DNA of 38,370 nt from Desulfatirhabdium butyrativorans (GCA_022736535.1 DZCT01000002.1:1-38370), one strand, 5' to 3'. Shown: positions 18,078 to 38,309, counted from the first letter of the stretch. A program made the numbers and translations. The notes: a model not told the origin generated them from the sequence alone.

Positions 18078-18107
18078 ACTGTCATTCTGAGCGAAGCGAA
18101 GAATCTC
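18078..18107 (+). repeat. Solo copy of the CTGTCATTCTGAG..GAAGAATCTC unit
   Basis: ACTGTCATTCTGAGCGAAGCGAAGAATCTC lies in the spacer between the ligase gene and NRPS3. It is near-identical to 35665-35694. Confidence 0.85.
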
Positions 18108-27450: not shown

Positions 27451-29085
27451 ATGAACCTGCTGAAACTATATAAAAAAGAGTCAACTGTTTCCGGCAACTC
27501 GGTGATGTTTATGGCGATTGCTTCCGGCATCGCACAGGGACTTCTGCTGGGCATCATCACCACTGCTGCAGCCACGGCTTCCTACGACAGCCTGAATTTC
27601 AGATTCTTTCTGCTGTTTGTGATTGCCTTCGCCATTGTTATCATCGGAAAACGCTTTGCTTTGAAAAGAGCCACTGCCATCGCCGAGGGGATCATCAAAC
27701 GTATAAGGATAAGAATTTCCGATAAAATCAGAAATTCCGAACTCCTGTTTCTGGAACATACCGGAAAAGCCGAAATCTATACACGGATTACTTACAACAC
27801 CAATCTGATTTCCGAATCCGCGGTGCTGATTATCAATGCAGCCCAGTCCGGCATTGTGCTGTTTTTCTGCCTGTTTTATATCGCTGTCTTATCGAACTTG
27901 GCTTTTTTCATCACCGTTATTGCCATCGGCGCGGCTACAGCCAATTATATGTTGCAGCAGGATAAAATTGACATAGAAATCCGTGAAACCGCCGGAAAAG
28001 AAAGCACCTTCTTTGAGATGCTGAATCAGACTCTTGACGGCTTCAAAGAACTGAAAATGAACCGAAAAAAAAGCGATGACCTTTTCGGATATCTGACAAA
28101 AATAGCAGATGAAACCGAGGAACTGAAAGTAAAAACCGGCTTCAGATTTGTCACAGAACTGATGTTCTCCCAGGTCTTTTTTTATACGCTGCTGGCGGTC
28201 ATTGTTTTTGTTCTGCCCCGATTGGACCCGGCAAATCCTTCATTGGTTATCCGACTCACTGCCGCGATTCTGTTTATTATCGGACCGGTAAATCTGATGG
28301 TGGGCGCGATACCGCTTTTTTCCAGAGCCAACATGGCGGTGGAAATTCTCTATGAACTTGAAAAGCGTTTGGATGATGCTGCAGCGCCGTTTAAAGTCGG
28401 GGACAAGCCCTATATCAGAAAGATCGAATCCTTTAACGAACTCCGGCTTGACAACCTTTCTTTTTCCTATGCCGATCCTTACGGAACGCCTTTATTTACG
28501 GTCGGTCCCGTCAATATGACGATCCGGAAAGGAGAAATCGTCTTTATCGTCGGCGGCAACGGCAGCGGAAAATCAACGCTGCTCAAGCTTTTAACCGGAC
28601 TGTATTATCCCGATGCCGGCACCATCCGATTGGATGATTTGACGATTGATAAGACATCCTATCAGGCATATCGGGAAATGTTTTCAATTATTTTCAGTGA
28701 TTTTCATGTGTTTGACAGACTCTACGGCTTGGATGAAACCGATTTCGATAAAATCCGAAATCTTATCAAGCTGATGGAACTGGAAAAGAAAACAGAAGTG
28801 ATTGACGGCGAATTTACCAATATCAAGCTTTCCACGGGCCAGCGGAAAAGACTGGCGATGATCTGTGCTTTGCTGGAAAACCGTCCGATCTGCGTGTTTG
28901 ATGAATGGGCGGCGGATCAGGATCCGATATTCAGAAAATATTTTTATGAAACTCTGCTGAACGATTTGAGAGCGCAGGGAAAAACAATTATCGCGGTCAG
29001 CCATGACGACCGATATTTCGGCTTTGCAGACAGAGTATTAAAAATGGAATACGGCAAGTTTGTCGAGTACAGCAGTCAGATTTGA
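27451..29085 (+). CDS. ABC exporter, fused TMD-NBD, cyclic-peptide transporter family (SyrD / PvdE / YojI-like)
   Basis: 544 aa with about six N-terminal TM segments. Walker A GGNGSGKST (28552-28578), signature LSTGQRKRLA, Walker B ICVFDEWAADQD, SHDDRYF. By eye the NBD strongly resembles E. coli YojI as I recall its sequence. Confidence 0.9.
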   Translation: MNLLKLYKKESTVSGNSVMFMAIASGIAQGLLLGIITTAAATASYDSLNFRFFLLFVIAFAIVIIGKRFALKRATAIAEGIIKRIRIRISDKIRNSELLFLEHTGKAEIYTRITYNTNLISESAVLIINAAQSGIVLFFCLFYIAVLSNLAFFITVIAIGAATANYMLQQDKIDIEIRETAGKESTFFEMLNQTLDGFKELKMNRKKSDDLFGYLTKIADETEELKVKTGFRFVTELMFSQVFFYTLLAVIVFVLPRLDPANPSLVIRLTAAILFIIGPVNLMVGAIPLFSRANMAVEILYELEKRLDDAAAPFKVGDKPYIRKIESFNELRLDNLSFSYADPYGTPLFTVGPVNMTIRKGEIVFIVGGNGSGKSTLLKLLTGLYYPDAGTIRLDDLTIDKTSYQAYREMFSIIFSDFHVFDRLYGLDETDFDKIRNLIKLMELEKKTEVIDGEFTNIKLSTGQRKRLAMICALLENRPICVFDEWAADQDPIFRKYFYETLLNDLRAQGKTIIAVSHDDRYFGFADRVLKMEYGKFVEYSSQI

Positions 29086-29169: not shown

Positions 29170-29215
29170 TCGCTCCGCTCCGCTTTTATAAGATGACGCA
29201 GTCCGGAACGGCTTG

Positions 29216-30508
29216 ATGACAATATTTCGGAGTGAAATAAAAATCAGAAAAATGTTTAAAAAAATTTTCAATAAAATAAAAGAGATATACAATACGATTT
29301 TAGAGAAATTCCACGGGAATATCTCCGTGCTGATTGTTCTTGTTCTGATTCAACTGCTCCTTATTGCCTATCTGTTTAACAACATTGTCTGTACGGTTGA
29401 GTCAGGGGAAGCGGGTGTTTTATACAAGCGATTCGGCGGCGGGACTATCACGGACAAAGTTTTTCCCGAAGGGATTTATTTCATATATCCCTGGGACAGG
29501 CTCTATGTTTACAATGTCAGGGTTCAGCAGAAAGGACATAAATTCCATGTGCTGACAAAAACCGGATTGAAGGTTCAGTTATCCATAAGCGTTCGTTATT
29601 ACCCGGAATACAATCTCCTCGGCATCCTGCATCAGAAAGTGGGACCCAGTTATGTAGACGAAATCGTTATTCCGGAAATCGAATCGGTGCTGCGTCTGAT
29701 TGTAGGACAGTTGGACGCGGAGGAGATTTACACCACCAAAACCGGGCTGATTGACGCGGCAATCAACGAGGCCATCGAACAGATTTCCCGCAGATTTGTC
29801 AAAGTGGACGATGTGATCATCAAAGAAGTGGAACTGCCCGAAAGTGTTGCGGATTCCATCCGTTACAAAATCGAGCAGAAACACATGGCAGAAGCCCATC
29901 TGTTTAAGATAGAGAAAGAAAAAAGAGAAGCGGAAAGAAAGCGGATCGAAGCCGGCGGTCTGAAAGATTACAATCATATTGTCAACACCTCGCTTTCGGA
30001 AAACATACTACAGTGGATGGGCATTCAGGCAACTTTGCAGTTGGCAAATTCGGACAATTCAAAAGTGATAGTGGTCGGCGCGGGCAAAAGAGGTCTGCCT
30101 GTTATCGGAAGCATTCTGCTGAATGACGGAATGCCCGAAATCAGCATCGGAAGCGGTGAAAAAGCCGGGACCTCAGAGAAAAACAAATCCGGCAAAACTG
30201 CCGAAGAACAGGAGAAACAAAGCCAATCCGGTGAGACAGAATCCCCTGAAAAAACAGAAAGCAGCGAAGCATCGGAAACCGTCAAACCGGAACAGACATC
30301 CGGCTCCGGACGCCGATATGAGTTTGTACGGGACCCGAATGAGGCGGCACCCCGTGAATCTGAAGAAATGAAGCAAAAAGAACGCTCTGAAATCAAAGAT
30401 AAATCCGAAACGGTCACGGAAAAAGACCGCTCCGGAATGTCAACCGAAACCGAAAAGAATCGGTCAGAACTGACCGGAAAAACAGATACATCGGATGCAA
30501 ACAGGTAA
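29216..30508 (+). CDS. SPFH / band-7 (prohibitin-stomatin-HflK/C family) membrane protein with a ~120-aa Glu/Lys/Ser/Thr-rich tail
   Basis: N-terminal TM ISVLIVLVLIQLLLIAYLF. SPFH core VESGEAGVLYKRFGGG...LKVQLSISVRYYP...VIPEIESVLRLIVGQLDAEEIYTTK. Coiled-coil segment EQKHMAEAHLFKIEKEKREAERKRIEA. The start is ambiguous (ATG 29216 or ATG 29252). Confidence 0.8.
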   Translation: MTIFRSEIKIRKMFKKIFNKIKEIYNTILEKFHGNISVLIVLVLIQLLLIAYLFNNIVCTVESGEAGVLYKRFGGGTITDKVFPEGIYFIYPWDRLYVYNVRVQQKGHKFHVLTKTGLKVQLSISVRYYPEYNLLGILHQKVGPSYVDEIVIPEIESVLRLIVGQLDAEEIYTTKTGLIDAAINEAIEQISRRFVKVDDVIIKEVELPESVADSIRYKIEQKHMAEAHLFKIEKEKREAERKRIEAGGLKDYNHIVNTSLSENILQWMGIQATLQLANSDNSKVIVVGAGKRGLPVIGSILLNDGMPEISIGSGEKAGTSEKNKSGKTAEEQEKQSQSGETESPEKTESSEASETVKPEQTSGSGRRYEFVRDPNEAAPRESEEMKQKERSEIKDKSETVTEKDRSGMSTETEKNRSELTGKTDTSDANR

Positions 30509-33221
30509 ACAGACGATTATTCTGCTCATGGCGGGTTTGTTTCTTTTTTCATGCGGTGCCGGCTCGCTGACGCCTGAAGAAAGAGGCAAAAAAGCAGCTC
30601 AGTCAAAAGGCGACATCGTGATCGGCGTGGTGGATTCTTCTTTTGATCCCAGCCTGTTTACGGACGGCGTAAAGCTGGCGGTCGCAGAAATCAACGAACA
30701 GGGCGGTCCTTTGGGAAGAAAAATCAGACCCCTGTTTTATGATGACAGGAGATACCTCAATATCGGTCAGAATGTTGCCCGAAAGCTGGCAGCACATCCG
30801 GATGTGGTTGCGGTGCTGGGGCATCGTTATTCGGGCGTGGCTGTGCCGGTATCCATCATCTATGAAAATAACGGCATTGTGTTTATTTCCACCGGCGCGA
30901 CAGACCCGAATTTTACCCAGTACGGGGGCGCATACACCTTCAGAAATATGCTCTCCGACAGCGATACGGGAAAAGAGACGGCACGGATGTCCTATCAGCG
31001 GGGATACACAAAAATGGCGGTCTTTTATGAAAGAGAGACCGCGGGTCAGCGTCTGGCAGATATTTTCAGCGAAGAAGCAGACCGGCTCGGCATTGATATT
31101 GTCGCAGTCCGTTCTTATTTCAAATGGCAGACAGATTTCAAGAACATGGCATCCGAACTTGCCCGGAATTACCAATTTGATGCGGTGTTTGTCGCCGGAC
31201 TTCTGCCGTTTGCCGGCGAGCTGATCAAACAGGCGCGGATGATGGGCATCAGTGTTCCTTTTATCGGCTCCCACAGTCTGGATTCTCCGGAACTTTTCAC
31301 CGTGGCAGGCAAAAGCGCGGAGCATGTGATTGTGCCTTCGGTTTTCAATCCGGATATGCCCTCTAAAAGCACCCGGGATTTTGTCAAAAAATTTCGGGCA
31401 AAATTCGGCGTGATGCCGGATACATGGGCGGCTCAGGGATATGATGCGGTTCAACTGCTGGCTTACGCCGTTGAAAAAAGCGGTTCTGCCGTGCCGATTG
31501 CCATGGGATCTGCCCTGCGCTTTCTTGAAAAATGGAAAGGCGCGACCGGCTCTTATTCTTTCAAGATGAACGGCGACATCAGCGGAAAGGAAATCTTTTT
31601 CAAAGAGCTTCGCAACGGCAAATTTGAGATGCTGGACTATGAGATGAAAGAGGAAATCAGTCCCTTTTATGTGGTGGAAGAAATCACCCTGCGCCTGCCG
31701 GTGGAAGGCATTATCACCACCATTGATCCGGGATTTTCGCAGGATATTTCCTCTATTGAAGCGATTGAGCAGATGTTTCTGGGGCTGACCGATTTTGATC
31801 CGAAAACCTATCAGGCAGTTCCCGAACTGGCGGAAAGCTGGAGTGTCAGCGACGACGGAAAGACCTACCGCTTCAAACTGCGTGAGGATGCCAAATGGAC
31901 AAACGGCAGAGCCGTCACCGCGCATGACATTGTCTGGGCAATTCAGCGGAATATAAAACCGGAAAGCAGATGTCCCTCTGCTTCCATGCTCTATATTCTG
32001 AAAAATGCAAAAGAGATCAGCAGCGGAAATATCACGGATGTCTCGCAGATCGGGGTCCGTGCGCCGGATGATTTTACAGCGGAATTTGAACTGGAACACC
32101 CTGCCGCATATTTTCCCGGAATGGCAGGTCTTGCGGTGTATCGGCCCCTGCCCCGTGAGACTGTTGAAGAATACAAAGAGCGCTGGACAGAACCTGAACA
32201 CATTCAGACCAACGGCTCTTACAAACTCGCGTTCTGGGACAAAGGGATGCTGATGATATTAAGAAAAAATCCGAATTATTATGAAGCGCAGAAGGTTTCT
32301 ATCCCTGAAGTCCGCTTTTATATCATCCCTGAGAGTGCGGTGGGTCTGGTCATGTATGAAAACAATGAATTGGACATCACGGGCGGAAATTATCTCAGAC
32401 TTCCTTTTGCCCGGCTGGATGATATTAAAGTCAATCCGCATATAGGCAAAGAATATTCAAGAGCGCCGATGTTTGCGACCTATTCTTACGGTTTTAATAC
32501 CAAACGTCCGCCCATGGACAATCCGCTGGTTCGGAAGGCGATCTGCGCGGCGGTTGACCGTCAGTTTTTAATTGATCTGGTGACCAAAAGCGGGGAAGCG
32601 CCGGCAACCACTTATACGCCCCCGCCGATTCTCGGTTCGGTTGCTCCCGAAGAGGGTGTGGGCATCGGCTTTGATCCGCTGCAGGCGAAAAAATGGCTGG
32701 CAGAAGCCGGCTATCCGGACGGCAAGGGTTTTCCCGAAATAGAGCTGCTGTATAATGCTTCCAAAACCCATTCGGAAATTGCCCGGGCCCTTGCGGCATC
32801 TTTAGCCTATTATCTGAATATCCGCCTCCGTCTGAAGGAAGAAACATGGGATAATTATGTCAAATATCTGTATGAGCCTGACACATCTTCGCATCATATC
32901 TTCAGATTCGGATGGTCTGTTGATTATCCGGATGCGAACAATATTCTCAATGAACTCTTCAATCCCCGGAACCCGAACAATTTCACGGGCTGGGACAATG
33001 CGGAGTTTTCCGAGCTGATGGCAAAGGCATTGGAAACAACGAATCCGGAAGAGAGAAAAGCCTTTTACAGACGTGCAGAACAGATTCTGTGCGAAGAACA
33101 TGCCGTGATTTTTCCGCTTTATTTTGAAGCCGCGCACTGTCTGGTAAAGCCCAGGGTCAAAGGCTGGTATCACATGGCAATCGGGGGGCAGCATATCCGC
33201 AACTGGAGTCTGAAAAACTGA
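30495..33221 (+). CDS. Lipoprotein fusing a type-1 periplasmic binding domain (LivK / Peripla_BP_6-like) to a family-5 solute-binding domain (OppA/DppA-like)
   Basis: The start overlaps the SPFH gene by 14 nt. Lipobox LFLFSC|GAG. N-terminal half: DIVIGVVDSS...KLAVAEINEQGGPLGRKIRPLFYDD...VVAVLGHRYSGVAVPVS..GIVFISTGATDP (LivK-like). C-terminal half from ~31677: FLGLTDFDPKTYQAVPELAESWSVSDDGKTYRFKLREDAKWTNG (family-5 SBP signature region), NPNYYE, GWSVDYPDANNIL. Confidence 0.85.
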   Translation: MQTGKQTIILLMAGLFLFSCGAGSLTPEERGKKAAQSKGDIVIGVVDSSFDPSLFTDGVKLAVAEINEQGGPLGRKIRPLFYDDRRYLNIGQNVARKLAAHPDVVAVLGHRYSGVAVPVSIIYENNGIVFISTGATDPNFTQYGGAYTFRNMLSDSDTGKETARMSYQRGYTKMAVFYERETAGQRLADIFSEEADRLGIDIVAVRSYFKWQTDFKNMASELARNYQFDAVFVAGLLPFAGELIKQARMMGISVPFIGSHSLDSPELFTVAGKSAEHVIVPSVFNPDMPSKSTRDFVKKFRAKFGVMPDTWAAQGYDAVQLLAYAVEKSGSAVPIAMGSALRFLEKWKGATGSYSFKMNGDISGKEIFFKELRNGKFEMLDYEMKEEISPFYVVEEITLRLPVEGIITTIDPGFSQDISSIEAIEQMFLGLTDFDPKTYQAVPELAESWSVSDDGKTYRFKLREDAKWTNGRAVTAHDIVWAIQRNIKPESRCPSASMLYILKNAKEISSGNITDVSQIGVRAPDDFTAEFELEHPAAYFPGMAGLAVYRPLPRETVEEYKERWTEPEHIQTNGSYKLAFWDKGMLMILRKNPNYYEAQKVSIPEVRFYIIPESAVGLVMYENNELDITGGNYLRLPFARLDDIKVNPHIGKEYSRAPMFATYSYGFNTKRPPMDNPLVRKAICAAVDRQFLIDLVTKSGEAPATTYTPPPILGSVAPEEGVGIGFDPLQAKKWLAEAGYPDGKGFPEIELLYNASKTHSEIARALAASLAYYLNIRLRLKEETWDNYVKYLYEPDTSSHHIFRFGWSVDYPDANNILNELFNPRNPNNFTGWDNAEFSELMAKALETTNPEERKAFYRRAEQILCEEHAVIFPLYFEAAHCLVKPRVKGWYHMAIGGQHIRNWSLKN

Positions 33222-33230
33222 CTTTTAATT

Positions 33231-33290
33231 TCTCGCAAAGGCGCAAAGGTCGCAAAGCAGAGACGCAAAATTTTGCGTCTCTGCGTCTCC
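33231..33290 (+). repeat. Composite intergenic repeat: three CGCAAAG direct repeats plus a 26-bp perfect palindrome (family 3)
   Basis: CGCAAAG at 33234, 33242 and 33251. CAGAGACGCAAAA|TTTTGCGTCTCTG at 33258-33283 is a perfect palindrome. A related TGCAAAGGGCGCAAAG lies at 33367-33382. Confidence 0.85.
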
Positions 33291-33392
33291 TCCTGTTTAC
33301 CCAAAAAATCCTTTGAGCTCTCTGCGCCGAGGCTGAGAACAGATGCGAGAAACCTTTATTATTTCTTGCAAAGGGCGCAAAGATTCTGAACT

Positions 33393-35624
33393 ATGAAAAA
33401 AAAACGGCTGTTCATATCCGCAATGCTGCTGGGGCTGATCGCCCTTGCCGCAGCAGTTATTTTTCTGCTGTCGGAGCAGTCTCCTTTTTTCAAAAAAGAA
33501 AAGATTGTCATTGCCGCTGCCGCGCCGATGAGCGGAGAAGCAAAAATGCAGGGGGATCAGATGCTTCAGGGAATCCGCCTGTTTTTTGCCGACTTCAACC
33601 GGCAGCATAAAGACCGGCAGATAGAACTCCTTGTGTTTGACGATAAAAATGACAAACGCATGGCAATGAAAGCCGCTTCCGAGATTGTCGGAAATGAAAA
33701 TGTGCTGCTGGTACTCGGTCATTACAGCAGTGAAACCGCGGCTGTGGCAGGAGACATTTACAAAAAAACCGGTATGCCGGTTATCACCGCATCTGCAACA
33801 GCAGACCGGATTACAGAGAACAATGACTGGTATTTCAGAACGGTTCCCGCAAACCGTTTTACAGGCAGTTTTATCGCAAATTACATTTACCGCAGTCTGA
33901 ACAAAGACAGAGTCAGCATTGTTTTTGACAAAGATTATTACGGAATATCGCTTGTGGAATCCTTTGAAAAAACGGCTGAAACATTGGGCATGACGGTCAG
34001 CGGAAAATGGGGAATTGACACGGATGAGAAAAATTCGGAAACTGATCTCAAGCGGATCGGCGATGAACTGAGAGCCGCACAGGACCCCGGGGCAATTTTT
34101 CTGGCAATGCACGGCGCCGAAGCAGCGAAAATTGTCGCGTCATTGAAGTATCCCGGAACAAGTTATATCATTGTCGGCGCAGATGCCCTGAGCACAGAAA
34201 TATTTCTCGACAACCTGAAAAGATACCCCGGTGAACAGATTATTGCGGGCTATCATTCGGACGGCGTTTATGCCGTGTCTCATTTTATGCCTGATATTTC
34301 CAATGAAAAAGCCCGGGTATTCACAAAAAAATTCCTGAATCAATATCAGCGCCGGCCTTCATGGGTATCTGCCGCCTACTATGACGCGGCGCATATTGTT
34401 GCGGAAGCTGTTGAAAGGGCTGAAATTCAGGGCATTAAGAACATAAGGGAAAGCCGGAAACTGCTCAGGGAATCGCTGGCAAGACTGAACTCTCCGGAAA
34501 GCGCCGTCGCGGGAATCTGCGGCAGCACGTATTTCAATCCGGTCGGAGATGTCATCAGATCACTGCCCGTGAGCGTTTATAAAAAACATTTTCTTCTTCC
34601 GGCATCTCATCAATATCAGTTTGTCTCTGAAGCGGAGCCGAAGTCCCGGGGACCCGCCCCGGTTCCGGCCGGAGATATAATAGAAGTTGAGGGGAAAAAA
34701 ATGGAGCAGTTCCGAATTGTTTATACCGGCGTTGATATAAATGAAATCGGCAATGCGGATATAGAGAGTTCCGCCTGCGCCATAGATTTTTATATCTGGT
34801 TCCGTTTTGAGAATGACTTTGATGACAGACAGATTGAGTTTACAAACGCTGTAAAACCTGTCTCACTGGGCATTCCGGTTATGGAATCGAAAACAGACAG
34901 CAGCACGGTGCGGGCTTACCGGGTAAAGGGGATTTTCAAAATCGCTTCTGATTTTCAAAAACATCCCTTCGGGCAGCAGTCCGTCAGCATCAGCCTGCGT
35001 CATACAGCGATTCCGAAAAACAGATTGGTTTATGTTCCCGATACACTGGGAATGCCCCGGCTTGAAACCGTCAAAAGCGAGATCGGAAAACAGACAAAAG
35101 GAATGCGGGACCGATGGCATGTCAAAGATATGTTTTTTTATCAGGACGCTGTATCCAAAACCTTTGTCAGCGGAAAGTTTCCGGATAATCTTCATGAGTC
35201 GGATATTGATTACTCACAGTTCAATGCGGTCTTCCAGATGGAACGGACGGGCTTTGAGCTGATTCTTAAAAATTTTCTGCCGATTCTGACGGCAGTCATC
35301 ATGCTGTATATCACGTATTTTCTGCCTTCGGGGCGCTTGGACATTCGTGCGCTGATGCTGGCGGCTGCTCTGCTGACATGCGGCATGTATCATATTCGGC
35401 TTTATCTTCTGTTTCCGGTAGGATACACCTTATTCATTGCTTATGCCTTTTTTGCATTTTATGCTTTGACGGCAATATCTCTGCTCTTTTTTCTCTTTAT
35501 CGGATATTTGCTGAAGAAAGATGCGCGGAAAAAGATAAAATATCTCAGCCGTGCGGCAAAGATTCTTTATCCGCCTGCGGTTTCAATTATCGGTATTTTA
35601 ATTGCATATTCCTGTTATTTATAA
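33393..35624 (+). CDS. Periplasmic-binding-domain (LivK-like) fused to a pentameric ligand-gated ion channel (pLGIC, Cys-loop superfamily) with four TM helices
   Basis: N-terminal TM/signal, then PBP1 region IVIAAAAPMSGEAK..IELLVFDDKND..VLLVLGHYSSETAAVAGDIYKKTGMPVITASAT..WYFRTVP. pLGIC extracellular domain FRIVYTGVDINEIGNADIESSACAIDFYIWFRFENDFD (beta1-beta2 pattern). Cys-loop-equivalent HPFGQQSVSISLRH (from 34962). Pre-M1 Arg plus M1 Pro in ERTGFELILKNFLPILTAVIM, an M2 helix, M2-M3 FPVGYTLFIAY, M3, and M4 ILYPPAVSIIGILIAYSCYL. Confidence 0.85.
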   Translation: MKKKRLFISAMLLGLIALAAAVIFLLSEQSPFFKKEKIVIAAAAPMSGEAKMQGDQMLQGIRLFFADFNRQHKDRQIELLVFDDKNDKRMAMKAASEIVGNENVLLVLGHYSSETAAVAGDIYKKTGMPVITASATADRITENNDWYFRTVPANRFTGSFIANYIYRSLNKDRVSIVFDKDYYGISLVESFEKTAETLGMTVSGKWGIDTDEKNSETDLKRIGDELRAAQDPGAIFLAMHGAEAAKIVASLKYPGTSYIIVGADALSTEIFLDNLKRYPGEQIIAGYHSDGVYAVSHFMPDISNEKARVFTKKFLNQYQRRPSWVSAAYYDAAHIVAEAVERAEIQGIKNIRESRKLLRESLARLNSPESAVAGICGSTYFNPVGDVIRSLPVSVYKKHFLLPASHQYQFVSEAEPKSRGPAPVPAGDIIEVEGKKMEQFRIVYTGVDINEIGNADIESSACAIDFYIWFRFENDFDDRQIEFTNAVKPVSLGIPVMESKTDSSTVRAYRVKGIFKIASDFQKHPFGQQSVSISLRHTAIPKNRLVYVPDTLGMPRLETVKSEIGKQTKGMRDRWHVKDMFFYQDAVSKTFVSGKFPDNLHESDIDYSQFNAVFQMERTGFELILKNFLPILTAVIMLYITYFLPSGRLDIRALMLAAALLTCGMYHIRLYLLFPVGYTLFIAYAFFAFYALTAISLLFFLFIGYLLKKDARKKIKYLSRAAKILYPPAVSIIGILIAYSCYL

Positions 35625-35630
35625 AAAAAA

Positions 35631-35822
35631 GGGTAGCGGTGCAGAAGAGGTGATGAACCCTCTCACTGTCATTCTGAGTGCAGCGAAGAATCTCGTTTTT
35701 TATAATACGCTGTTATAATAAAAGATTCTTCACTGCGTTCAGAATGACAGGTCATACAGAGATTCTTCACTGCGTTCAGAATGACAGAAGCAGAAATCAT
35801 CACCTCTTCTACACCACTACCC
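35631..35822. repeat. 192-bp nested inverted-repeat (MITE-like) element between the two pLGIC paralogs
   Basis: Outer arms GGGTAGCGGTGCAGAAGAGGTGATGA (35631-35656) and TCATCACCTCTTCTACACCACTACCC (35797-35822) match at 24 of 26 positions. Inside are one forward unit ACTGTCATTCTGAGTGCAGCGAAGAATCTC (35665-35694), an AT-rich spacer with a TTATAATA direct repeat, and two inverted units AGATTCTTCACTGCGTTCAGAATGACAG (35723-35750 and 35760-35787). Confidence 0.9.
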
Positions 35823-35854
35823 AAAAAACTTAGTTTCTCACCAATCTGTTATTT

Positions 35855-38062
35855 ATGAAAAAAATACTGCTGATCGTCATATTGTTTCTCCTGCTGGTCG
35901 GGGGAGCTGCCGGCATTTTTCTGCGGATGCATCCTTTATCGCCGCTTAAAAAAGAGGTCGTCTATATTGCGCTTGCGGGTCCCGTGAGCGGCGTGGAAAA
36001 AGCAGCGGGAAAAGCCATGGTAAGAGGAGCGGAACTGTATTTGGACCGGCTCCGCAAAGAAGGAGGCGAACCTCAGGGTAAAAAGATAGAACTGCTTGTT
36101 TTTGATGATAAAAACAATGAAGAGACTGCCCGAAAAGTTGCAACGGAAATTGCCTTGCAGAAAAAAGCACTGCTGGTGCTGGGACATGATTACAGCAGCA
36201 CTTCCATTGCCGCCGGAGAGATTTACAAACGAAATGAAATCTGTGCGATAACAGGGTCCGCGGCAGCAGAAGCCGTCACGTCTGACAACGAATGGTATTT
36301 CCGAATCATTCCCGGCAATGTTTCCCAAATCAGTTTTATCGCAAATTATATCCGCAAAGAATTGCAGCAGACATCCGTCGCTGTTATATTTGACAAAGAC
36401 AGCTACGGTTCTTCTCTTGCCGAATATTTTGAAGCGACGGCAAAAAAGCTGGGAATTGATATTAAAGGGAAATGGGGAGTTGATTCTTCCGACGGAAATA
36501 CTGACGCGCTTTTAAAGAATATCGCGGATAAAATTGCAGATGAGCCGGGGGTGCTGTTCTTTGCCCTTTACTTTCCCGAAGCCGCCAAAATGACCCGGCT
36601 GTTAAAAGACAGAGGGGGGAAGCATGTTATCATCGGCACCGATTCGCTTTCAGACAGTTCTTTTATTGAGGCGCTGAAAAAGTATCCCGAAGAACAGCAG
36701 AAGCCCGGATATTATTCCGACGGGATTCTCACCGTATCGCCGCTTCTGATAGAGGTTGCAGATAAAGAAGCATATATTTTCGGACAGGATTTCATCAGAA
36801 CGTACAAAGAAGAACCCTCATGGACAGCAGGCTGCTATTATGACGCGATGCACGTTGCTGTGGAAGCTGTAAAAAAAGCTGAAATACAGGGAAAAGGACA
36901 TATCCTGAGCGACCGGAGAAAAATCAGGGAAGCCCTGAGAGGTTTTTACAATCATGAAAATGCGGTGAGAGGCATCAGCGGCTCTCTTTATTTCAATGCT
37001 TACGGCAATGTGTCCAGACCGCCTTTCATGGGCTTCTATGAAAAACAGATACTCTTTCCTGACTTTGTGCAGTATCAGCCTGTTCCCGAAGGAGATCAGG
37101 TTGAGGATATATTCAGAAAAGCTTTGGAAGGAGAGGTCATCCTCAGCGACGGCAAACTGATGATTCAGACCCGCGTGGTGTATGCCGGAATTTATATTAA
37201 TGAAATAAGCAATTTGGATGTTATCCGTTCAAGTTATACCGCCGATTTTTATCTCTGGTTCCGCTATAGGGGCGATTTTGACGAAACCCGGATCGAATTT
37301 CTGAATGCCGTGAATCCGGTTGATCCGGGAAAGCCTTTCATAGACAAAACAGATGAAAAAAACATTACATTTCGGGCATTTCGCATAAAAGCGGATTTCA
37401 AAGACGATTTTGATTTTCATGCCTATCCTTTTGACCGGCATCACTTGCGGATAAAAATCCGGCACGCTGAAATGAAAAAAGAGCAACTGATTTATGTTGC
37501 CGATGTGCTGGGTCTGCCGGAGGCAAGTAAAATGCTTGAGAAACCGGGGCTTAAAGACGCGGAAGACTGGCAGCTCGGCGAACTTGATTTCTACCAGAAT
37601 ACCGTAGAAAAAGTTTCCGCGCTCGGCAACCCCCAGTTTTTTGACACGCATCACACGATCAGCTATTCCCGCTTTAATGCGGCAATTCCGATTGAGAGAA
37701 AAGGCTTGGGGTTTGTCGTCAGGGCATTTCTGCCGGTCAGCATCATGATGGCGCTGATTTGCGGCATCCTCTGTCTTGCGCCCGCGGAAAGACTCGGTAT
37801 TTCGCTCTCCGGGCTGGCAGCCGTGCTGACGGTCAATACGCTTTTTCATCTGAAGCTTTTTTCAGACCTGCCCGTAGCCTATATATCAGCCCTTGAGTAT
37901 GCGCATCTGGCAGTCTGCCTCCTGTCCGTCATATCGGCGGTTGTTGTATTGCTGAAATATGCTTCGCACAGAAAAAGAGAGAGATTTACGATGCCGGAGC
38001 AGGGCGGTCCAGGGGCTGAACCGTCTGCAAAACACATTAAAAAAAACGGCGGAGAGACGTAA
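35855..38062 (+). CDS. Paralogous LivK-like binding domain fused to a pLGIC body; only three C-terminal TM helices (M4 absent)
   Basis: Collinear with the upstream paralog, roughly 40% identity by eye. The YPFDRHHLRIKIRH loop (from 37424) falls at residue 524, as does HPFGQQ in the paralog. Other motifs: VVYAGIYINEISNLDVIRSSYTADFYLWFRYRGDFD, ERKGLGFVVRAFLPVSIMM (M1), LGISLSGLAAVLTVNTLFHL (M2), LPVAYISALEY, M3. It ends in a 33-aa polar tail. Confidence 0.85.
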   Translation: MKKILLIVILFLLLVGGAAGIFLRMHPLSPLKKEVVYIALAGPVSGVEKAAGKAMVRGAELYLDRLRKEGGEPQGKKIELLVFDDKNNEETARKVATEIALQKKALLVLGHDYSSTSIAAGEIYKRNEICAITGSAAAEAVTSDNEWYFRIIPGNVSQISFIANYIRKELQQTSVAVIFDKDSYGSSLAEYFEATAKKLGIDIKGKWGVDSSDGNTDALLKNIADKIADEPGVLFFALYFPEAAKMTRLLKDRGGKHVIIGTDSLSDSSFIEALKKYPEEQQKPGYYSDGILTVSPLLIEVADKEAYIFGQDFIRTYKEEPSWTAGCYYDAMHVAVEAVKKAEIQGKGHILSDRRKIREALRGFYNHENAVRGISGSLYFNAYGNVSRPPFMGFYEKQILFPDFVQYQPVPEGDQVEDIFRKALEGEVILSDGKLMIQTRVVYAGIYINEISNLDVIRSSYTADFYLWFRYRGDFDETRIEFLNAVNPVDPGKPFIDKTDEKNITFRAFRIKADFKDDFDFHAYPFDRHHLRIKIRHAEMKKEQLIYVADVLGLPEASKMLEKPGLKDAEDWQLGELDFYQNTVEKVSALGNPQFFDTHHTISYSRFNAAIPIERKGLGFVVRAFLPVSIMMALICGILCLAPAERLGISLSGLAAVLTVNTLFHLKLFSDLPVAYISALEYAHLAVCLLSVISAVVVLLKYASHRKRERFTMPEQGGPGAEPSAKHIKKNGGET

Positions 38063-38105: not shown

Positions 38106-38309
38106 ATGTCACCGACAATCATCACCATAGCGTGGGTAGCAGCGAGTCTGGTGATCGGACTCATGGGGATCAACAGGAAAATGGGATTTTGGGGCTATTT
38201 TTTCGGTTCGATGCTTCTGGGACCTGTCATCGGTTTATTCTTACTGCTTGCCTCTGACAAAAGAACCCCGGTCAAAGCCGAAATCGAGGAAGTGAGGAGT
38301 GAGGAGTGA
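38106..38309 (+). CDS. Small two-TM membrane protein, unknown function
   Basis: I chose ATG 38106, because the ORF-track start 37959 overlaps the preceding gene. Sequence: MSPTIITIAWVAASLVIGLMGINRKMGFWGYFFGSMLLGPVIGLFLLLASDK. The last codons (EEVRSEE*) are encoded by an AGTGAGG heptamer run. Confidence 0.45.
   Translation: MSPTIITIAWVAASLVIGLMGINRKMGFWGYFFGSMLLGPVIGLFLLLASDKRTPVKAEIEEVRSEE

What the first reader, a model, noticed from the sequence alone, without database searches (positions are those of the whole stretch)
33393..38062. Tandem paralogs fusing a LivK-type ligand-binding domain to a pentameric ligand-gated ion channel
Both proteins are collinear. Each has an N-terminal TM/signal, a ~370-aa type-1 periplasmic binding domain (..IELLVFDDKN.., LLVLGH.YSS, WYFR..P), a ~200-aa beta-rich domain and a TM bundle. 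The beta-rich domain shows pLGIC hallmarks: the V.Y.G..INEI...D.....Y..DFY.WFR pattern, and the Cys-loop-equivalent YPFDRHHLRIKIRH / HPFGQQSVSISLRH. The TM bundle has the pre-M1 Arg, the M1 Pro (FLP) and an M2-M3 (L/F)PV.Y motif. In-silico surveys of prokaryotic Cys-loop homologs have noted N-terminal PBP fusions, but to my knowledge none has been characterised functionally. A duplicated pair beside a peptide biosynthesis and export locus is a candidate for amino-acid-gated or peptide-gated ion flux. A link to the NRPS product is pure inference.
Basis: partly seen in the sequence, partly recalled or inferred. Interest (0 to 1): 0.72.

Follow-up and report, generated by a model that had tools for sequence, protein, structure and literature searches.

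The report
Binding-protein-fused pentameric channel gene pair
Two neighbouring genes each join an amino-acid-binding "Venus flytrap" domain to a bacterial relative of the nerve-cell GABA/nicotinic receptor channels; the architecture was predicted in 2004 but never tested, public databases label these proteins as transporter binding proteins, and the genes sit in a conserved module that offers candidates for finding out what such channels do in bacteria.

Summary
ORF A (33393-35624, 743 aa) and ORF B (35855-38062, 735 aa) are 40% identical and collinear. Each has an N-terminal hydrophobic anchor and a LivJ/LivK-type PBP-I domain (Pfam E 1e-37 and 6e-34). [quoted passage not shown] Pfam's channel models miss both proteins. 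A family profile hits GLIC and GABA-A chains at E 2e-18, and B alone hits an ELIC chimera at 8.5e-9. The AlphaFold model of A's C-terminal half (pLDDT 91) matches GABA-A/GLIC subunits end to end (Foldseek E 8e-18, TM about 0.7).

Three points are new relative to the finding:
- B has only M1-M3. A roughly 330-bp deletion, absent from 75%-identical orthologs, removed M4.
- The pair belongs to a conserved module: SPFH protein, then a PBP-I+OppA-like lipoprotein, then the channel gene(s), often preceded by a cyclic-peptide-type ABC exporter. NRPS adjacency is seen only in close relatives.
- The family is large (880 clusters at E<=1e-30), is named "ABC transporter substrate-binding protein" in databases, and its closest members are mostly in filamentous or multicellular bacteria.

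The architecture itself was described in silico in 2004. Gating, ligand and stoichiometry remain untested.

The parts
33393..35624 (+). Gene A: PBP-I / pLGIC fusion, 743 aa, with four TM helices
   Evidence: ORF. Pfam PBP domain. AF2 model plus Foldseek for the channel half. The identical protein is found on three independent contigs.
33498..34622 (+). A: periplasmic LivJ/LivK-type (PBP-I) domain, about aa 36-410
   Evidence: Peripla_BP_6 E 1.6e-37 and ANF_receptor E 1.6e-26. PDB LivJ/LivK-type proteins at E about 4e-18.
34677..35246 (+). A: pLGIC extracellular beta-sandwich, aa 429-618, with Pro-loop HPFGQQ
   Evidence: AF2 strands at model residues 5-194. Foldseek matches to GABA-A/GLIC subunits.
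35253..35618 (+). A: transmembrane domain M1-M4, aa 621-742
   Evidence: AF2 helices 197-219, 225-249, 257-284 and 288-318 of the model. phmmer match to GABA-A alpha5 residues 204-338.
35631..35822 (.). Palindromic repeat element of about 190 nt inserted in the A-B spacer
   Evidence: 64-nt inverted arms and a duplicated 28-mer. RNA fold -94 kcal/mol, z -10.9. One more core copy at 18079-18106. Relatives have only 15-65 nt between A and B.
35855..38062 (+). Gene B: PBP-I / pLGIC fusion, 735 aa, with only three TM helices after the beta-sandwich
   Evidence: ORF. 40% identity to A. AF2 full-length model with pLDDT 91.1 and pTM 0.88. phmmer match to an ELIC chimera at E 8.5e-9.
35954..37084 (+). 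B: PBP-I domain, aa 34-410
   Evidence: Peripla_BP_6 E 6.3e-34. Foldseek matches to LivJ/LivK and Leu-bound SBPs with TM(target) 0.89, rmsd 2.5 A.
37136..37699 (+). B: pLGIC beta-sandwich, aa 428-615, with canonical Pro-loop YPFDRH
   Evidence: AF2 strands. Alignment to ELIC/GABA-A chimera residues 75-282.
37703..37987 (+). B: M1-M3, aa 617-711
   Evidence: AF2 helices 617-641, 647-671 and 679-711.
37988..38059 (+). B: hydrophilic C-terminal tail replacing M4; the deletion scar begins near 37982
   Evidence: pLDDT below 50 for aa 721-735. DNA homology to orthologs stops after ..ASHRKRE and resumes about 94 nt later, against 420 nt in relatives that encode an M4-like helix.
30495..33221 (+). 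Conserved partner: lipoprotein fusing a PBP-I domain to an OppA-like SBP_bac_5 domain (908 aa)
   Evidence: Pfam SBP_bac_5 6e-78 plus Peripla_BP_6 4e-44. NCBIfam OppA-like match. Found directly upstream of channel genes in many loci.
29213..30508 (+). Conserved partner: SPFH/Band-7 protein; its stop overlaps the next gene's start by 14 nt
   Evidence: Pfam Band_7 2e-23. Found upstream of the lipoprotein gene in 13 loci.
27451..29085 (+). Cyclic-peptide-type ABC exporter, a frequent but not universal partner
   Evidence: TIGR01194 at 356 bits against a cut-off of 286. Homologs lie upstream of the SPFH gene in HSG2, HSG8 and HSG9 and in close relatives.
38106..38309 (+). Small two-TM ORF (67 aa) downstream of B, conserved in close relatives only
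   Evidence: A 65-67 aa gene is called at this place in L001-L003 and L083-L085. 84% DNA identity to relatives. No family match.

Best explanation
SHOWN. A and B are subunits of a divergent clade of prokaryotic pentameric ligand-gated ion channels (Pro-loop/Cys-loop superfamily). The canonical periplasmic beta-sandwich and helical membrane domain are preceded by a LivJ/LivK-type PBP-I 'Venus flytrap' domain and an N-terminal membrane anchor or signal sequence. They are old paralogs, not a recent duplication. Each has about 70-75%-identical orthologs that keep lineage-specific features. The A lineage has Pro-loop YPFG and an Arg at the position the profile aligns to M2 0'. The B lineage has Pro-loop YPFD, Ser in place of that Arg, and an atypical M4. 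In this genome B has additionally lost M4 through a roughly 330-bp deletion. The genes belong to a module conserved across Desulfobacterales: an SPFH protein, a PBP-I+OppA-like lipoprotein, then one or two PBP-pLGIC genes, often preceded by a cyclic-peptide-type ABC exporter. In sulfur-oxidising Gammaproteobacteria a stand-alone OppA-like gene sits immediately upstream. In cyanobacteria, Chloroflexota and Beggiatoaceae a class-II SBP is fused after M4.

INFERRED. A periplasmic alpha-amino acid, or a compound carrying an amino-acid-like head group, closes the N-terminal flytrap. That movement is passed to the beta-sandwich and the Pro-loop/M2-M3 interface, opens the M2-lined pore, and changes membrane potential or ion content. 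The OppA-like partner probably delivers or senses a second, peptide-like ligand at the periplasmic face. The SPFH protein probably organises or modulates the complex in the membrane. A and B form either a heteromer or two channels with different side-chain specificity.

CONFIDENCE. Identity as PBP-I-fused pLGIC homologs: about 0.95. The gating mechanism as stated: about 0.5.
For: Channel identity:
- Family profile against PDB: GLIC/GABA-A chimera 2e-18 and GLIC about 1e-13, spanning the beta-sandwich to M4.
- B alone 8.5e-9; A alone 1.2e-4.
- AF2 pLDDT 91 for both models.
- Foldseek: all 50 top hits are pLGIC subunits at TM about 0.7.
- Relatives pass Pfam's Neur_chan_memb cut-off, for example P0010 at 36 bits against 28.1.
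- The hallmarks YPFD, pre-M1 Arg, M1 Pro and M2-M3 LPxVGY are conserved in the family alignment.

PBP domain:
- Pfam hits and Foldseek matches to ligand-bound LivJ/LivK-type proteins at TM 0.89.
- The residues that hold the amino-acid backbone in LivJ are kept in the 71-sequence family set: S79 in 64, the S-A-T/S motif (LivJ A100-T102; position 102 is T or S in 66), Y/F150 in 67, D at 226 in 60, Y at 276 in 70.
- The side-chain pocket positions 18 and 77 differ between the A and B lineages.

Module:
- Synteny from tblastn and gene calls.
- Gaps of 11-34 nt between the lipoprotein gene and the first channel gene in relatives.
- The C-terminal SBP_bac_1 fusions show that a second SBP works next to the channel.

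Paralog age: orthologs of both A and B in L083-L085.
Against: - No experiment exists on any PBP-fused pLGIC (PMC12664993; PMC4795631).
- Oligomeric state could not be predicted here.
- Pfam channel models do not reach the two window proteins, and only 1 of 30 relatives touches Neur_chan_LBD, so the beta-sandwich is very divergent.
- A lacks the Pro-loop Asp that is conserved in the family majority.
- B lacks M4 in this genome and has Ala where LivJ has Thr102, so B may be impaired.
- By my reading of the aligned M2, the pore-facing positions of A are mostly hydrophobic. The M2 register differs by one residue between the profile alignment and the single-sequence alignment.
Its numbering agrees with the residue numbers I recall for the LivJ binding site, but it was not checked against a database.
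Confidence: 0.6

Rival explanations
1. Only A is a working channel here. B in this genome is a decaying or regulatory remnant, because the deletion that removed M4 disabled it.
For: About 330 bp are missing relative to 75%-identical orthologs, which end in an M4-like helix. The tail has pLDDT below 50. B alone has Ala at the LivJ Thr102 position, where its orthologs have Thr or Ser.
Against: The B reading frame is otherwise intact over 735 codons and is identical on three contigs. Relatives that end shortly after M3 exist (P0209, P0218, P0095), though some may be truncated gene calls, and in others M3 runs straight into a cytoplasmic cNMP-binding domain (P0170, P0204, P0213). A three-helix version is therefore tolerated repeatedly in this family.
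Confidence: 0.3
2. The proteins are receptors that signal by conformational change or by recruiting partners such as SPFH, PilZ or MscS-type proteins, rather than by conducting ions. The pLGIC membrane domain serves as a transducer and not as a pore.
For: By my reading, the M2 face in A is mostly hydrophobic. Some variants are fused to cNMP-binding or MscS modules. PilZ and MscS genes lie inside some modules. The SPFH partner is conserved.
Against: The gating hallmarks (Pro-loop, pre-M1 Arg, M2-M3 Pro, mid-M2 Leu) are conserved as in conducting pLGICs. The solved pLGIC chains matched here (GLIC, ELIC, DeCLIC, GABA-A) are all described as ion channels (background knowledge).
Confidence: 0.12
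3. The pair senses, or protects against, the product of the adjacent NRPS cluster. It would be a dedicated sensor for the exported peptide.
For: The NRPS genes, a cyclic-peptide-type exporter and the channel module lie on one strand in the window and in 70%-identical relatives. An exporter of the same type precedes the module in HSG2, HSG8 and HSG9. The OppA-like partner points to a peptide ligand.
Against: No NRPS lies within the 4-10 kb upstream of the module in HSG2 and HSG9 or in the 10 kb shown for the Desulfonema magnum locus. Most of the 79 genome loci have neither an exporter nor an NRPS gene in the 10-kb flanks. Synteny among 70%-identical relatives is not independent evidence.
Confidence: 0.1
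4. They are substrate-binding proteins of a branched-chain amino acid ABC importer, as public records name them.
For: Source names such as 'ABC transporter substrate-binding protein' and 'branched-chain amino acid transport system substrate-binding protein'. The N-terminal half is a genuine LivJ/LivK-type domain.
Against: Half of each protein is a pLGIC module. No importer permease or ATPase genes lie next to them; the only ABC gene nearby is an exporter type.
Confidence: 0.02

Closest known systems
PBP-I + ART-LGIC fusions predicted by Tasneem, Iyer, Jakobsson and Aravind (Genome Biol 2004/2005, PMC549065)
   Same: The same architecture, an N-terminal periplasmic-binding-protein type I domain in front of a complete Cys-loop-type channel module. 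[quoted passage not shown]
   Different: Those examples came from alpha-proteobacteria (Magnetospirillum, Bradyrhizobium) and were never tested. The clade here falls below Pfam's channel thresholds. It comes as conserved paralog pairs with SPFH and a double-SBP lipoprotein, and includes versions ending after M3. Whether the two sets form one clade was not tested.
DeCLIC (Desulfofustis pLGIC with an N-terminal domain; PDB 6v4a)
   Same: A prokaryotic pLGIC whose large periplasmic N-terminal domain makes up about half the mass and modulates gating. B's channel half matches it at E 1.4e-3.
   Different: According to PMC12664993, the DeCLIC N-terminal domain consists of two lobes that resemble calcium-binding regulatory regions of other prokaryotic proteins, not a PBP flytrap. 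The same paper states that DeCLIC is the only NTD-bearing pLGIC characterised so far.
GLIC and ELIC (minimal bacterial pLGICs)
   Same: The same beta-sandwich plus M1-M4 fold and the same coupling motifs. GLIC aligns over residues 76-311 at E about 1e-13 with the family profile, and ELIC aligns over 75-287.
   Different: They have no accessory domain. Identity in the structural alignments is about 12-18%. B lacks M4.
Ionotropic and metabotropic glutamate receptors
   Same: A LIVBP-type flytrap placed on the outer face of a membrane signalling module. mGluR and taste-receptor flytraps are among the sequence and fold hits of the PBP half.
   Different: The membrane modules are unrelated: a tetrameric P-loop pore or a 7-TM receptor, against a pentameric four-helix bundle. 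The resemblance is an analogy in design, not family membership.
LivJ/LivK and related amino-acid SBPs (4gnr, 3td9, 4n0q, 3ip5)
   Same: The N-terminal half has the same fold (TM 0.89, rmsd 2.5 A) and keeps the residues that bind the amino-acid backbone.
   Different: It is tethered to a channel rather than free in the periplasm, and there is no cognate importer.

Membership tests
Pentameric ligand-gated ion channels (Pro-loop/Cys-loop superfamily) | Extracellular beta-sandwich followed by a four-helix membrane domain (M1-M4) | tested here: met
   Met for A: AF2 pLDDT 91.4 and full-length Foldseek matches to GABA-A/GLIC subunits, E 8e-18, TM 0.62-0.72. B has the beta-sandwich and M1-M3 only; see the separate row.
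Pentameric ligand-gated ion channels (Pro-loop/Cys-loop superfamily) | Fourth helix M4 present in every subunit | tested here: not met
   Not met for B: the protein ends 24 residues after M3, there is no M4 in any frame, and a roughly 330-bp deletion separates it from its orthologs. Met for A.
Pentameric ligand-gated ion channels (Pro-loop/Cys-loop superfamily) | Statistically significant sequence similarity to known members | tested here: met
   Family profile 2e-18. B alone 8.5e-9. A alone 1.2e-4.
Pentameric ligand-gated ion channels (Pro-loop/Cys-loop superfamily) | Passing the curated Pfam models Neur_chan_LBD (PF02931) and Neur_chan_memb (PF02932) | tested here: not met
   No hit for A or B at E<=1. 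16 of 30 relatives hit PF02932 at E<=0.01, some above the cut-off, and 1 of 30 hits PF02931. This is a sensitivity limit of the models and not evidence against homology.
Pentameric ligand-gated ion channels (Pro-loop/Cys-loop superfamily) | Pro-loop motif (aromatic-Pro-x-Asp) in the beta6-beta7 loop, pre-M1 Arg, M1 Pro, and M2-M3 loop Pro | tested here: met
   B has YPFD, IERKG, FLP and LPVAY. A has HPFG (Asp replaced by Gly, conserved in A orthologs), MERTG, FLP and FPVGY. Family consensus is YPFD...FRH and LPxVGY.
Pentameric ligand-gated ion channels (Pro-loop/Cys-loop superfamily) | Assembly as a pentamer around a central pore | not testable with these tools
   Only monomer prediction was available.
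Pentameric ligand-gated ion channels (Pro-loop/Cys-loop superfamily) | Ligand-evoked ion conduction | not testable with these tools
   Needs electrophysiology or flux assays.
PBP type I / LivJ-LivK family (Pfam Peripla_BP_6) | Curated HMM above cut-off and a two-lobe flytrap fold | tested here: met
   130.5 and 118.6 bits against a cut-off of 31.7. Foldseek TM(target) 0.89 to LivJ/LivK-type structures.
PBP type I / LivJ-LivK family (Pfam Peripla_BP_6) | Residues that bind the alpha-amino and alpha-carboxylate groups of the ligand | tested here: inconclusive
   Equivalents of LivJ S79, A100-T102, Y150 and E226 (as Asp) are kept in 57-69 of 71 family members and in A. B has Ala at position 102.
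ABC importer substrate-binding proteins (the database annotation) | Soluble or lipid-anchored SBP encoded with importer permease and ATPase genes | tested here: not met
   The protein carries an integral channel module. No importer genes are in the window; the neighbouring ABC gene is an exporter type.
DeCLIC-type NTD-bearing pLGICs | N-terminal domain built of two lobes of the DeCLIC type | tested here: not met
   The N-terminal domain here is a PBP-I flytrap. DeCLIC matches only in the channel half. The nature of the DeCLIC NTD is taken from PMC12664993.

The most novel reading that the evidence does not exclude
The conserved module forms a peptide- or amino-acid-triggered electrical signalling device. 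Its parts are a peptide exporter, an SPFH scaffold, a double-SBP lipoprotein and paired PBP-pLGIC subunits. Filamentous and multicellular bacteria would use it to coordinate cells along a filament or aggregate. The candidate hosts are Desulfonema, Beggiatoaceae, cable bacteria, filamentous cyanobacteria, Chloroflexota and multicellular magnetotactic bacteria. This would be a bacterial counterpart of transmitter-gated signalling. The A and B paralogs would assemble as a heteromer, and the versions ending after M3 would be a genuine new subunit type whose cytoplasmic end can carry a cNMP sensor.
Probability: 0.1. Interest if true: 0.9.

Novelty: new member of a known kind. Interest (0 to 1): 0.6.

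Why it matters
The physiological role of bacterial pLGICs, and of their extra N-terminal domains, is an open question. Only DeCLIC has been studied, and its domain is not a binding protein (PMC12664993). This locus, and the family it belongs to, gives concrete testable candidates.

- The ligand class can be guessed from a well-understood flytrap domain.
- Conserved partner genes (an SPFH protein and an OppA-like lipoprotein) can be co-expressed with the channel.
- A natural pair of diverged subunits is available for testing heteromer formation.
- Relatives that end after M3, including window B, bear on whether M4 is essential.

There is also a practical annotation point. At least 880 sequence clusters at E<=1e-30 are related to the channel half. 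Most of the best-scoring ones carry an N-terminal PBP domain, and the public names seen for them call them ABC-transporter binding proteins, so the channel half goes unannotated. The closest members are mostly in filamentous or multicellular bacteria from four phyla. That pattern has not been tested statistically, but it suggests a lifestyle-linked function worth a proper comparative study.

Tried and rejected
- Direct Pfam and NCBIfam scans of A and B found no usable channel hit. The best was TIGR00860 at E 0.0026 for B. Profiles and structure prediction were needed instead.
- The first word-indexed homolog search with B's channel half returned only 6 proteins. The exhaustive profile search and an alignment-seeded search showed that the family is in fact large.
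- Counting TM helices with a Kyte-Doolittle window misclassified many relatives, because it misses M2 and weak M4 helices. Reading the tails directly showed that nearly all relatives have an M4 with a G-[RK]-I-x-Y-P motif.
- I first took B to have a one-residue deletion in M2 relative to A. The larger alignment shows A and B are gapless against each other. The M2 register is ambiguous by one residue between the profile and single-sequence alignments, so I draw no conclusion on the 9' residue or on ion selectivity.
- A neighbour-joining tree of 22 homologs was star-like and had no support values. It shows only that A and B are not each other's closest relatives.
- The full-length B model returned only PBP hits in the top 50 Foldseek matches. 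The evidence for B's channel half is therefore sequence-based, together with the model's secondary structure.
- The promoter/terminator scan found promoter-like sites at about the shuffle expectation and nothing that settles how A and B are transcribed. Rfam found nothing in the window.
- Literature searches for the channel family in filamentous bacteria found nothing relevant.
Full report
**1. What is in the sequence**

The coordinates bracket two ORFs on the + strand. A runs 33393..35624 (743 aa) and B runs 35855..38062 (735 aa). They are collinear paralogs, 40% identical over 694 residues, E 2e-172. The window is part of a 42.9-kb MAG contig (GCA_975759245.1). Both proteins recur unchanged on two JGI metagenome contigs, so the gene structures are not single-assembly artefacts. 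The closest genome in the species-representative collection is a Desulfobacteraceae MAG, with B's channel half at 76% identity.

**2. The N-terminal half**

Both proteins pass Pfam Peripla_BP_6 by a wide margin: 130.5 and 118.6 bits against a cut-off of 31.7. ANF_receptor is the second hit. Their best PDB sequence matches are branched-chain amino-acid binding proteins. The full-length AF2 model of B has pLDDT 91.1 and pTM 0.88. Its PBP half superposes on LivJ/LivK-type structures with TM(target) 0.89 and rmsd 2.5 A. The fit is better to ligand-bound forms than to open forms.

I aligned the family to E. coli LivJ.
- The positions that hold the ligand's alpha-amino and alpha-carboxylate groups are strongly conserved among the 71 family sequences: S79 in 64, S-A-T/S at 100-102 in 66 or more, Y/F150 in 67, Asp at 226 in 60, Tyr at 276 in 70.
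- The side-chain pocket positions 18 and 77 differ systematically between the A lineage (Gln, Tyr) and the B lineage (small residue, Asp).

This points to an amino acid or an amino-acid-like head group, with different specificities for A and B. It is an inference and not a demonstrated ligand.

**3. The C-terminal half**

Pfam's two channel models do not reach either window protein, even at E<=1. Homology is nevertheless secure on three grounds.

Sequence searches against PDB chains:

| Query | Best pLGIC hits |
|---|---|
| B channel half alone | ELIC/GABA-A chimera 8.5e-9; ELIC about 4e-4; DeCLIC 1.4e-3 (beta-sandwich through M3) |
| A full length | GABA-A alpha5, 1.2e-4 |
| 8-sequence family profile | GLIC/GABA-A chimeras 2e-18; GLIC about 1e-13 over GLIC residues 76-311 |

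Family members: 16 of 30 full-length relatives hit Neur_chan_memb at E<=0.01, some above Pfam's cut-off. Only one touches Neur_chan_LBD, so the beta-sandwich is the most divergent part.

Structure: the AF2 model of A residues 425-743 (pLDDT 91.4, pTM 0.81) is a beta-sandwich followed by four long helices. All 50 top Foldseek hits in the PDB are GABA-A or GLIC-chimera subunits aligned end to end, with E down to 8e-18 and TM 0.62-0.72.

The coupling hallmarks are conserved in the family: the Pro-loop YPFD, the pre-M1 Arg, the M1 Pro and the M2-M3 LPxVGY motif, which resembles LPKVAY of GABA-A subunits. The topology is as required: a basic N-terminus and a hydrophobic helix, then PBP and beta-sandwich outside, then M1.

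**4. How A and B differ**

A has M1-M4, and its M4 is preceded by the family's SR..K-I-x-Y-P motif. B stops 24 residues after M3, and no frame downstream encodes an M4. Orthologs of B at about 75% identity (P0014, P0156, P0157) are 747-748 aa and end in a hydrophobic M4-like helix. At the DNA level, homology between the window and those relatives stops just after the codons for ASHRKRE and resumes about 94 nt later. The relatives have 420 nt between the same two points. The window lineage has therefore lost about 330 bp, including M4.

Other differences are older and conserved within each lineage:
- A-type proteins have Gly in place of the Pro-loop Asp (YPFGQQ) and an Arg at the position the profile aligns to M2 0'.
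- B-type proteins keep YPFD but have Ser at that M2 position.

Orthologs of both A and B sit side by side in the 70%-identical relatives. In a rough tree, A and B are not each other's nearest relatives. The duplication is therefore old and both copies have been maintained.

Relatives that end shortly after M3 occur elsewhere in the family (P0209, P0218, P0095), although some of these could be truncated gene calls. In three relatives M3 runs directly into a cytoplasmic cNMP-binding domain, which fits the topology because M3 ends inside the cell. M4 loss is therefore recurrent in this family. Whether window B still works is open.

**5. Surroundings and their conservation**

Upstream on the same strand lie, in order:
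- three NRPS genes with tailoring genes;
- a DUF481 protein;
- a beta-lactamase-fold protein;
- an ABC gene that passes the NCBIfam cut-off for 'cyclic peptide export ABC transporter' (356 against 286 bits);
- an SPFH/Band-7 gene;
- a 908-aa lipoprotein gene fusing a PBP-I domain to an OppA-like SBP_bac_5 domain, which overlaps the SPFH stop by 14 nt.

I searched 79 genome loci that encode relatives of the channel half with the window's proteins. The results:
- The order SPFH, double-SBP lipoprotein, channel gene(s) recurs in about a dozen Desulfobacterales loci at 50-60% identity, including Desulfonema magnum and D. limicola.
- An exporter homolog precedes the module in HSG2, HSG8 and HSG9.
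- In Thiomargarita, Thioploca, Parabeggiatoa and other Thiotrichales, a stand-alone OppA-like gene lies directly upstream of the channel gene.
- In many cyanobacterial, Chloroflexota and Beggiatoaceae members, a class-II SBP (SBP_bac_1) is fused after M4, where the chain is again periplasmic.

Adjacency in some lineages and fusion in others is good evidence that a second binding protein works at the outer face of the channel. This extends the operon observation of Tasneem et al. (PMC549065). In relatives, the lipoprotein gene and the first channel gene are 11-34 nt apart. The larger spacers in the window are at least partly due to an inserted palindromic repeat.

The NRPS genes are adjacent only in the 70%-identical relatives. 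In HSG2, HSG9 and a D. magnum locus, other genes occupy that place. The exporter link is somewhat better supported.

**6. Size and distribution of the family**

An exhaustive profile search of 1.84 billion cluster representatives found 6573 proteins at E<=1e-3 and 880 at E<=1e-30. Most top hits are 730-770 aa with the channel half at about 365-750, which means they are PBP-fused. A second class of about 1150-1260 aa carries the extra C-terminal SBP. Where public sources name these proteins, they call them ABC-transporter or branched-chain amino-acid substrate-binding proteins.

The 79 best genome loci come almost entirely from these groups, often with several copies per genome:
- Desulfobacterales, including Desulfonema;
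- large sulfur bacteria;
- a cable bacterium;
- filamentous cyanobacteria (Moorena, Okeania, Trichodesmium, Dapis, Symploca, Planktothrix);
- Anaerolineae/Chloroflexota.

Candidatus Magnetomorum and Magnetoglobus also appear. That list is ranked by similarity to the query and I ran no statistical test. The association with filamentous or multicellular lifestyles is therefore an observation to follow up and not a result.

**7. Mechanism**

Shown: domain identities, topology, paralogy, and conserved partners.

Inferred: ligand binding closes the flytrap. The movement is relayed through the beta-sandwich and the Pro-loop/M2-M3 interface and opens a pentameric pore. The OppA-like partner supplies or senses a peptide-like ligand, and the SPFH protein organises or modulates the complex.

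I put identity at about 0.95 and this mechanism at about 0.5. The main rivals are:
- B is non-functional here (0.3, compatible with the main model);
- the proteins signal without conducting ions (0.12);
- they are a dedicated sensor of the NRPS product (0.1);
- the database annotation as an importer binding protein is correct (0.02).

**8. Comparison with what is known, and novelty**

The architecture is the PBP-I + channel fusion that Tasneem et al. predicted in 2004 from alpha-proteobacterial genomes. Jaiteh et al. 2016 stressed that such associations were evidenced only at the genome level. A 2025 paper states that DeCLIC is the only pLGIC whose N-terminal domain has been characterised, and that domain is not a PBP. 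The design parallels glutamate receptors, but the membrane modules are unrelated.

I therefore file the finding as a new member of a known, purely in-silico kind. It is a correct and well-observed identification. Four additions could interest specialists: the conserved SPFH/double-SBP module, the maintained A/B subunit pair, recurrent loss of M4, and the scale of mis-annotation. Interest 0.6.

Noticed in passing
window 35631-35822 and 18079-18106: A palindromic element of about 190 nt sits in the A-B spacer. It has 64-nt inverted arms at 81% complementarity and a 28-mer (AGATTCTTCACTGCGTTCAGAATGACAG) present twice direct and once inverted. The predicted RNA fold is -94 kcal/mol, z -10.9. Another copy of the core lies between the acyl-ligase gene and the third NRPS gene. 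Relatives have only 15-65 nt between A and B, so it looks like an inserted REP/MITE-like repeat.
   Followed up: partly
window 30495-33221: A 908-aa predicted lipoprotein (N-terminal ...LFLFSCGAG) fuses a PBP-I domain to an OppA-like SBP_bac_5 domain. This double binding protein is conserved next to the channel genes in many Desulfobacterales. Its PBP-I domain lacks the LivJ-type backbone-binding Tyr150 and Glu226 equivalents, so it probably binds something other than a free amino acid.
   Followed up: partly
P0170, P0204, P0213, P0211 (relatives): Some family members run from M3 straight into a cytoplasmic cyclic-nucleotide-binding domain with no M4. One member (P0211) joins the PBP and beta-sandwich to an MscS-type channel plus a cNMP domain.
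   Followed up: partly
L088 (Desulfonema magnum CP061800.1, 2926487-2948598) and L087 (Desulfococcaceae HSG9): The D. magnum locus reads SPFH, double-SBP lipoprotein, PBP-pLGIC, a 1301-aa MscS-like protein, PBP-pLGIC. The HSG9 module has two ABC exporter genes, a DUF697 gene and two PilZ genes before the SPFH gene, and a second double-SBP lipoprotein gene after the channel pair. D. magnum has at least three such loci.
   Followed up: no
L008, L015, L017, L020-L022, L024, L026, L031, L041, L052, L057, L063, L078: Long relatives of about 1150-1260 aa carry a class-II solute-binding domain (SBP_bac_1) fused after M4. This gives a channel with binding-protein domains at both periplasmic ends. They occur in cyanobacteria, Chloroflexota and Beggiatoaceae.
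   Followed up: partly
window 38106-38309: A 67-aa ORF with two predicted TM helices lies just downstream of B. It is conserved at 84% DNA identity in close relatives and matches no family. It is followed by a convergent priA in the source contig.
   Followed up: no
window 33222-33392: The spacer before gene A holds a perfect 9-bp stem hairpin (GAGACGCAAAATTTTGCGTCTC) and two similar GCAAAGG-rich direct repeats (TTCTCGCAAAGGCGCAAAG and TTCTTGCAAAGGGCGCAAAG). In relatives the equivalent spacer is only 11-34 nt.
   Followed up: no
window 98-24288: The NRPS locus has three multi-module NRPS genes, an AsnB-like amidotransferase, a KAS III, an SDR, a stand-alone acyl-AMP ligase and an SBP_bac_3 gene. 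This suggests a lipopeptide-type product. The first NRPS ORF probably starts upstream of the window.
   Followed up: no
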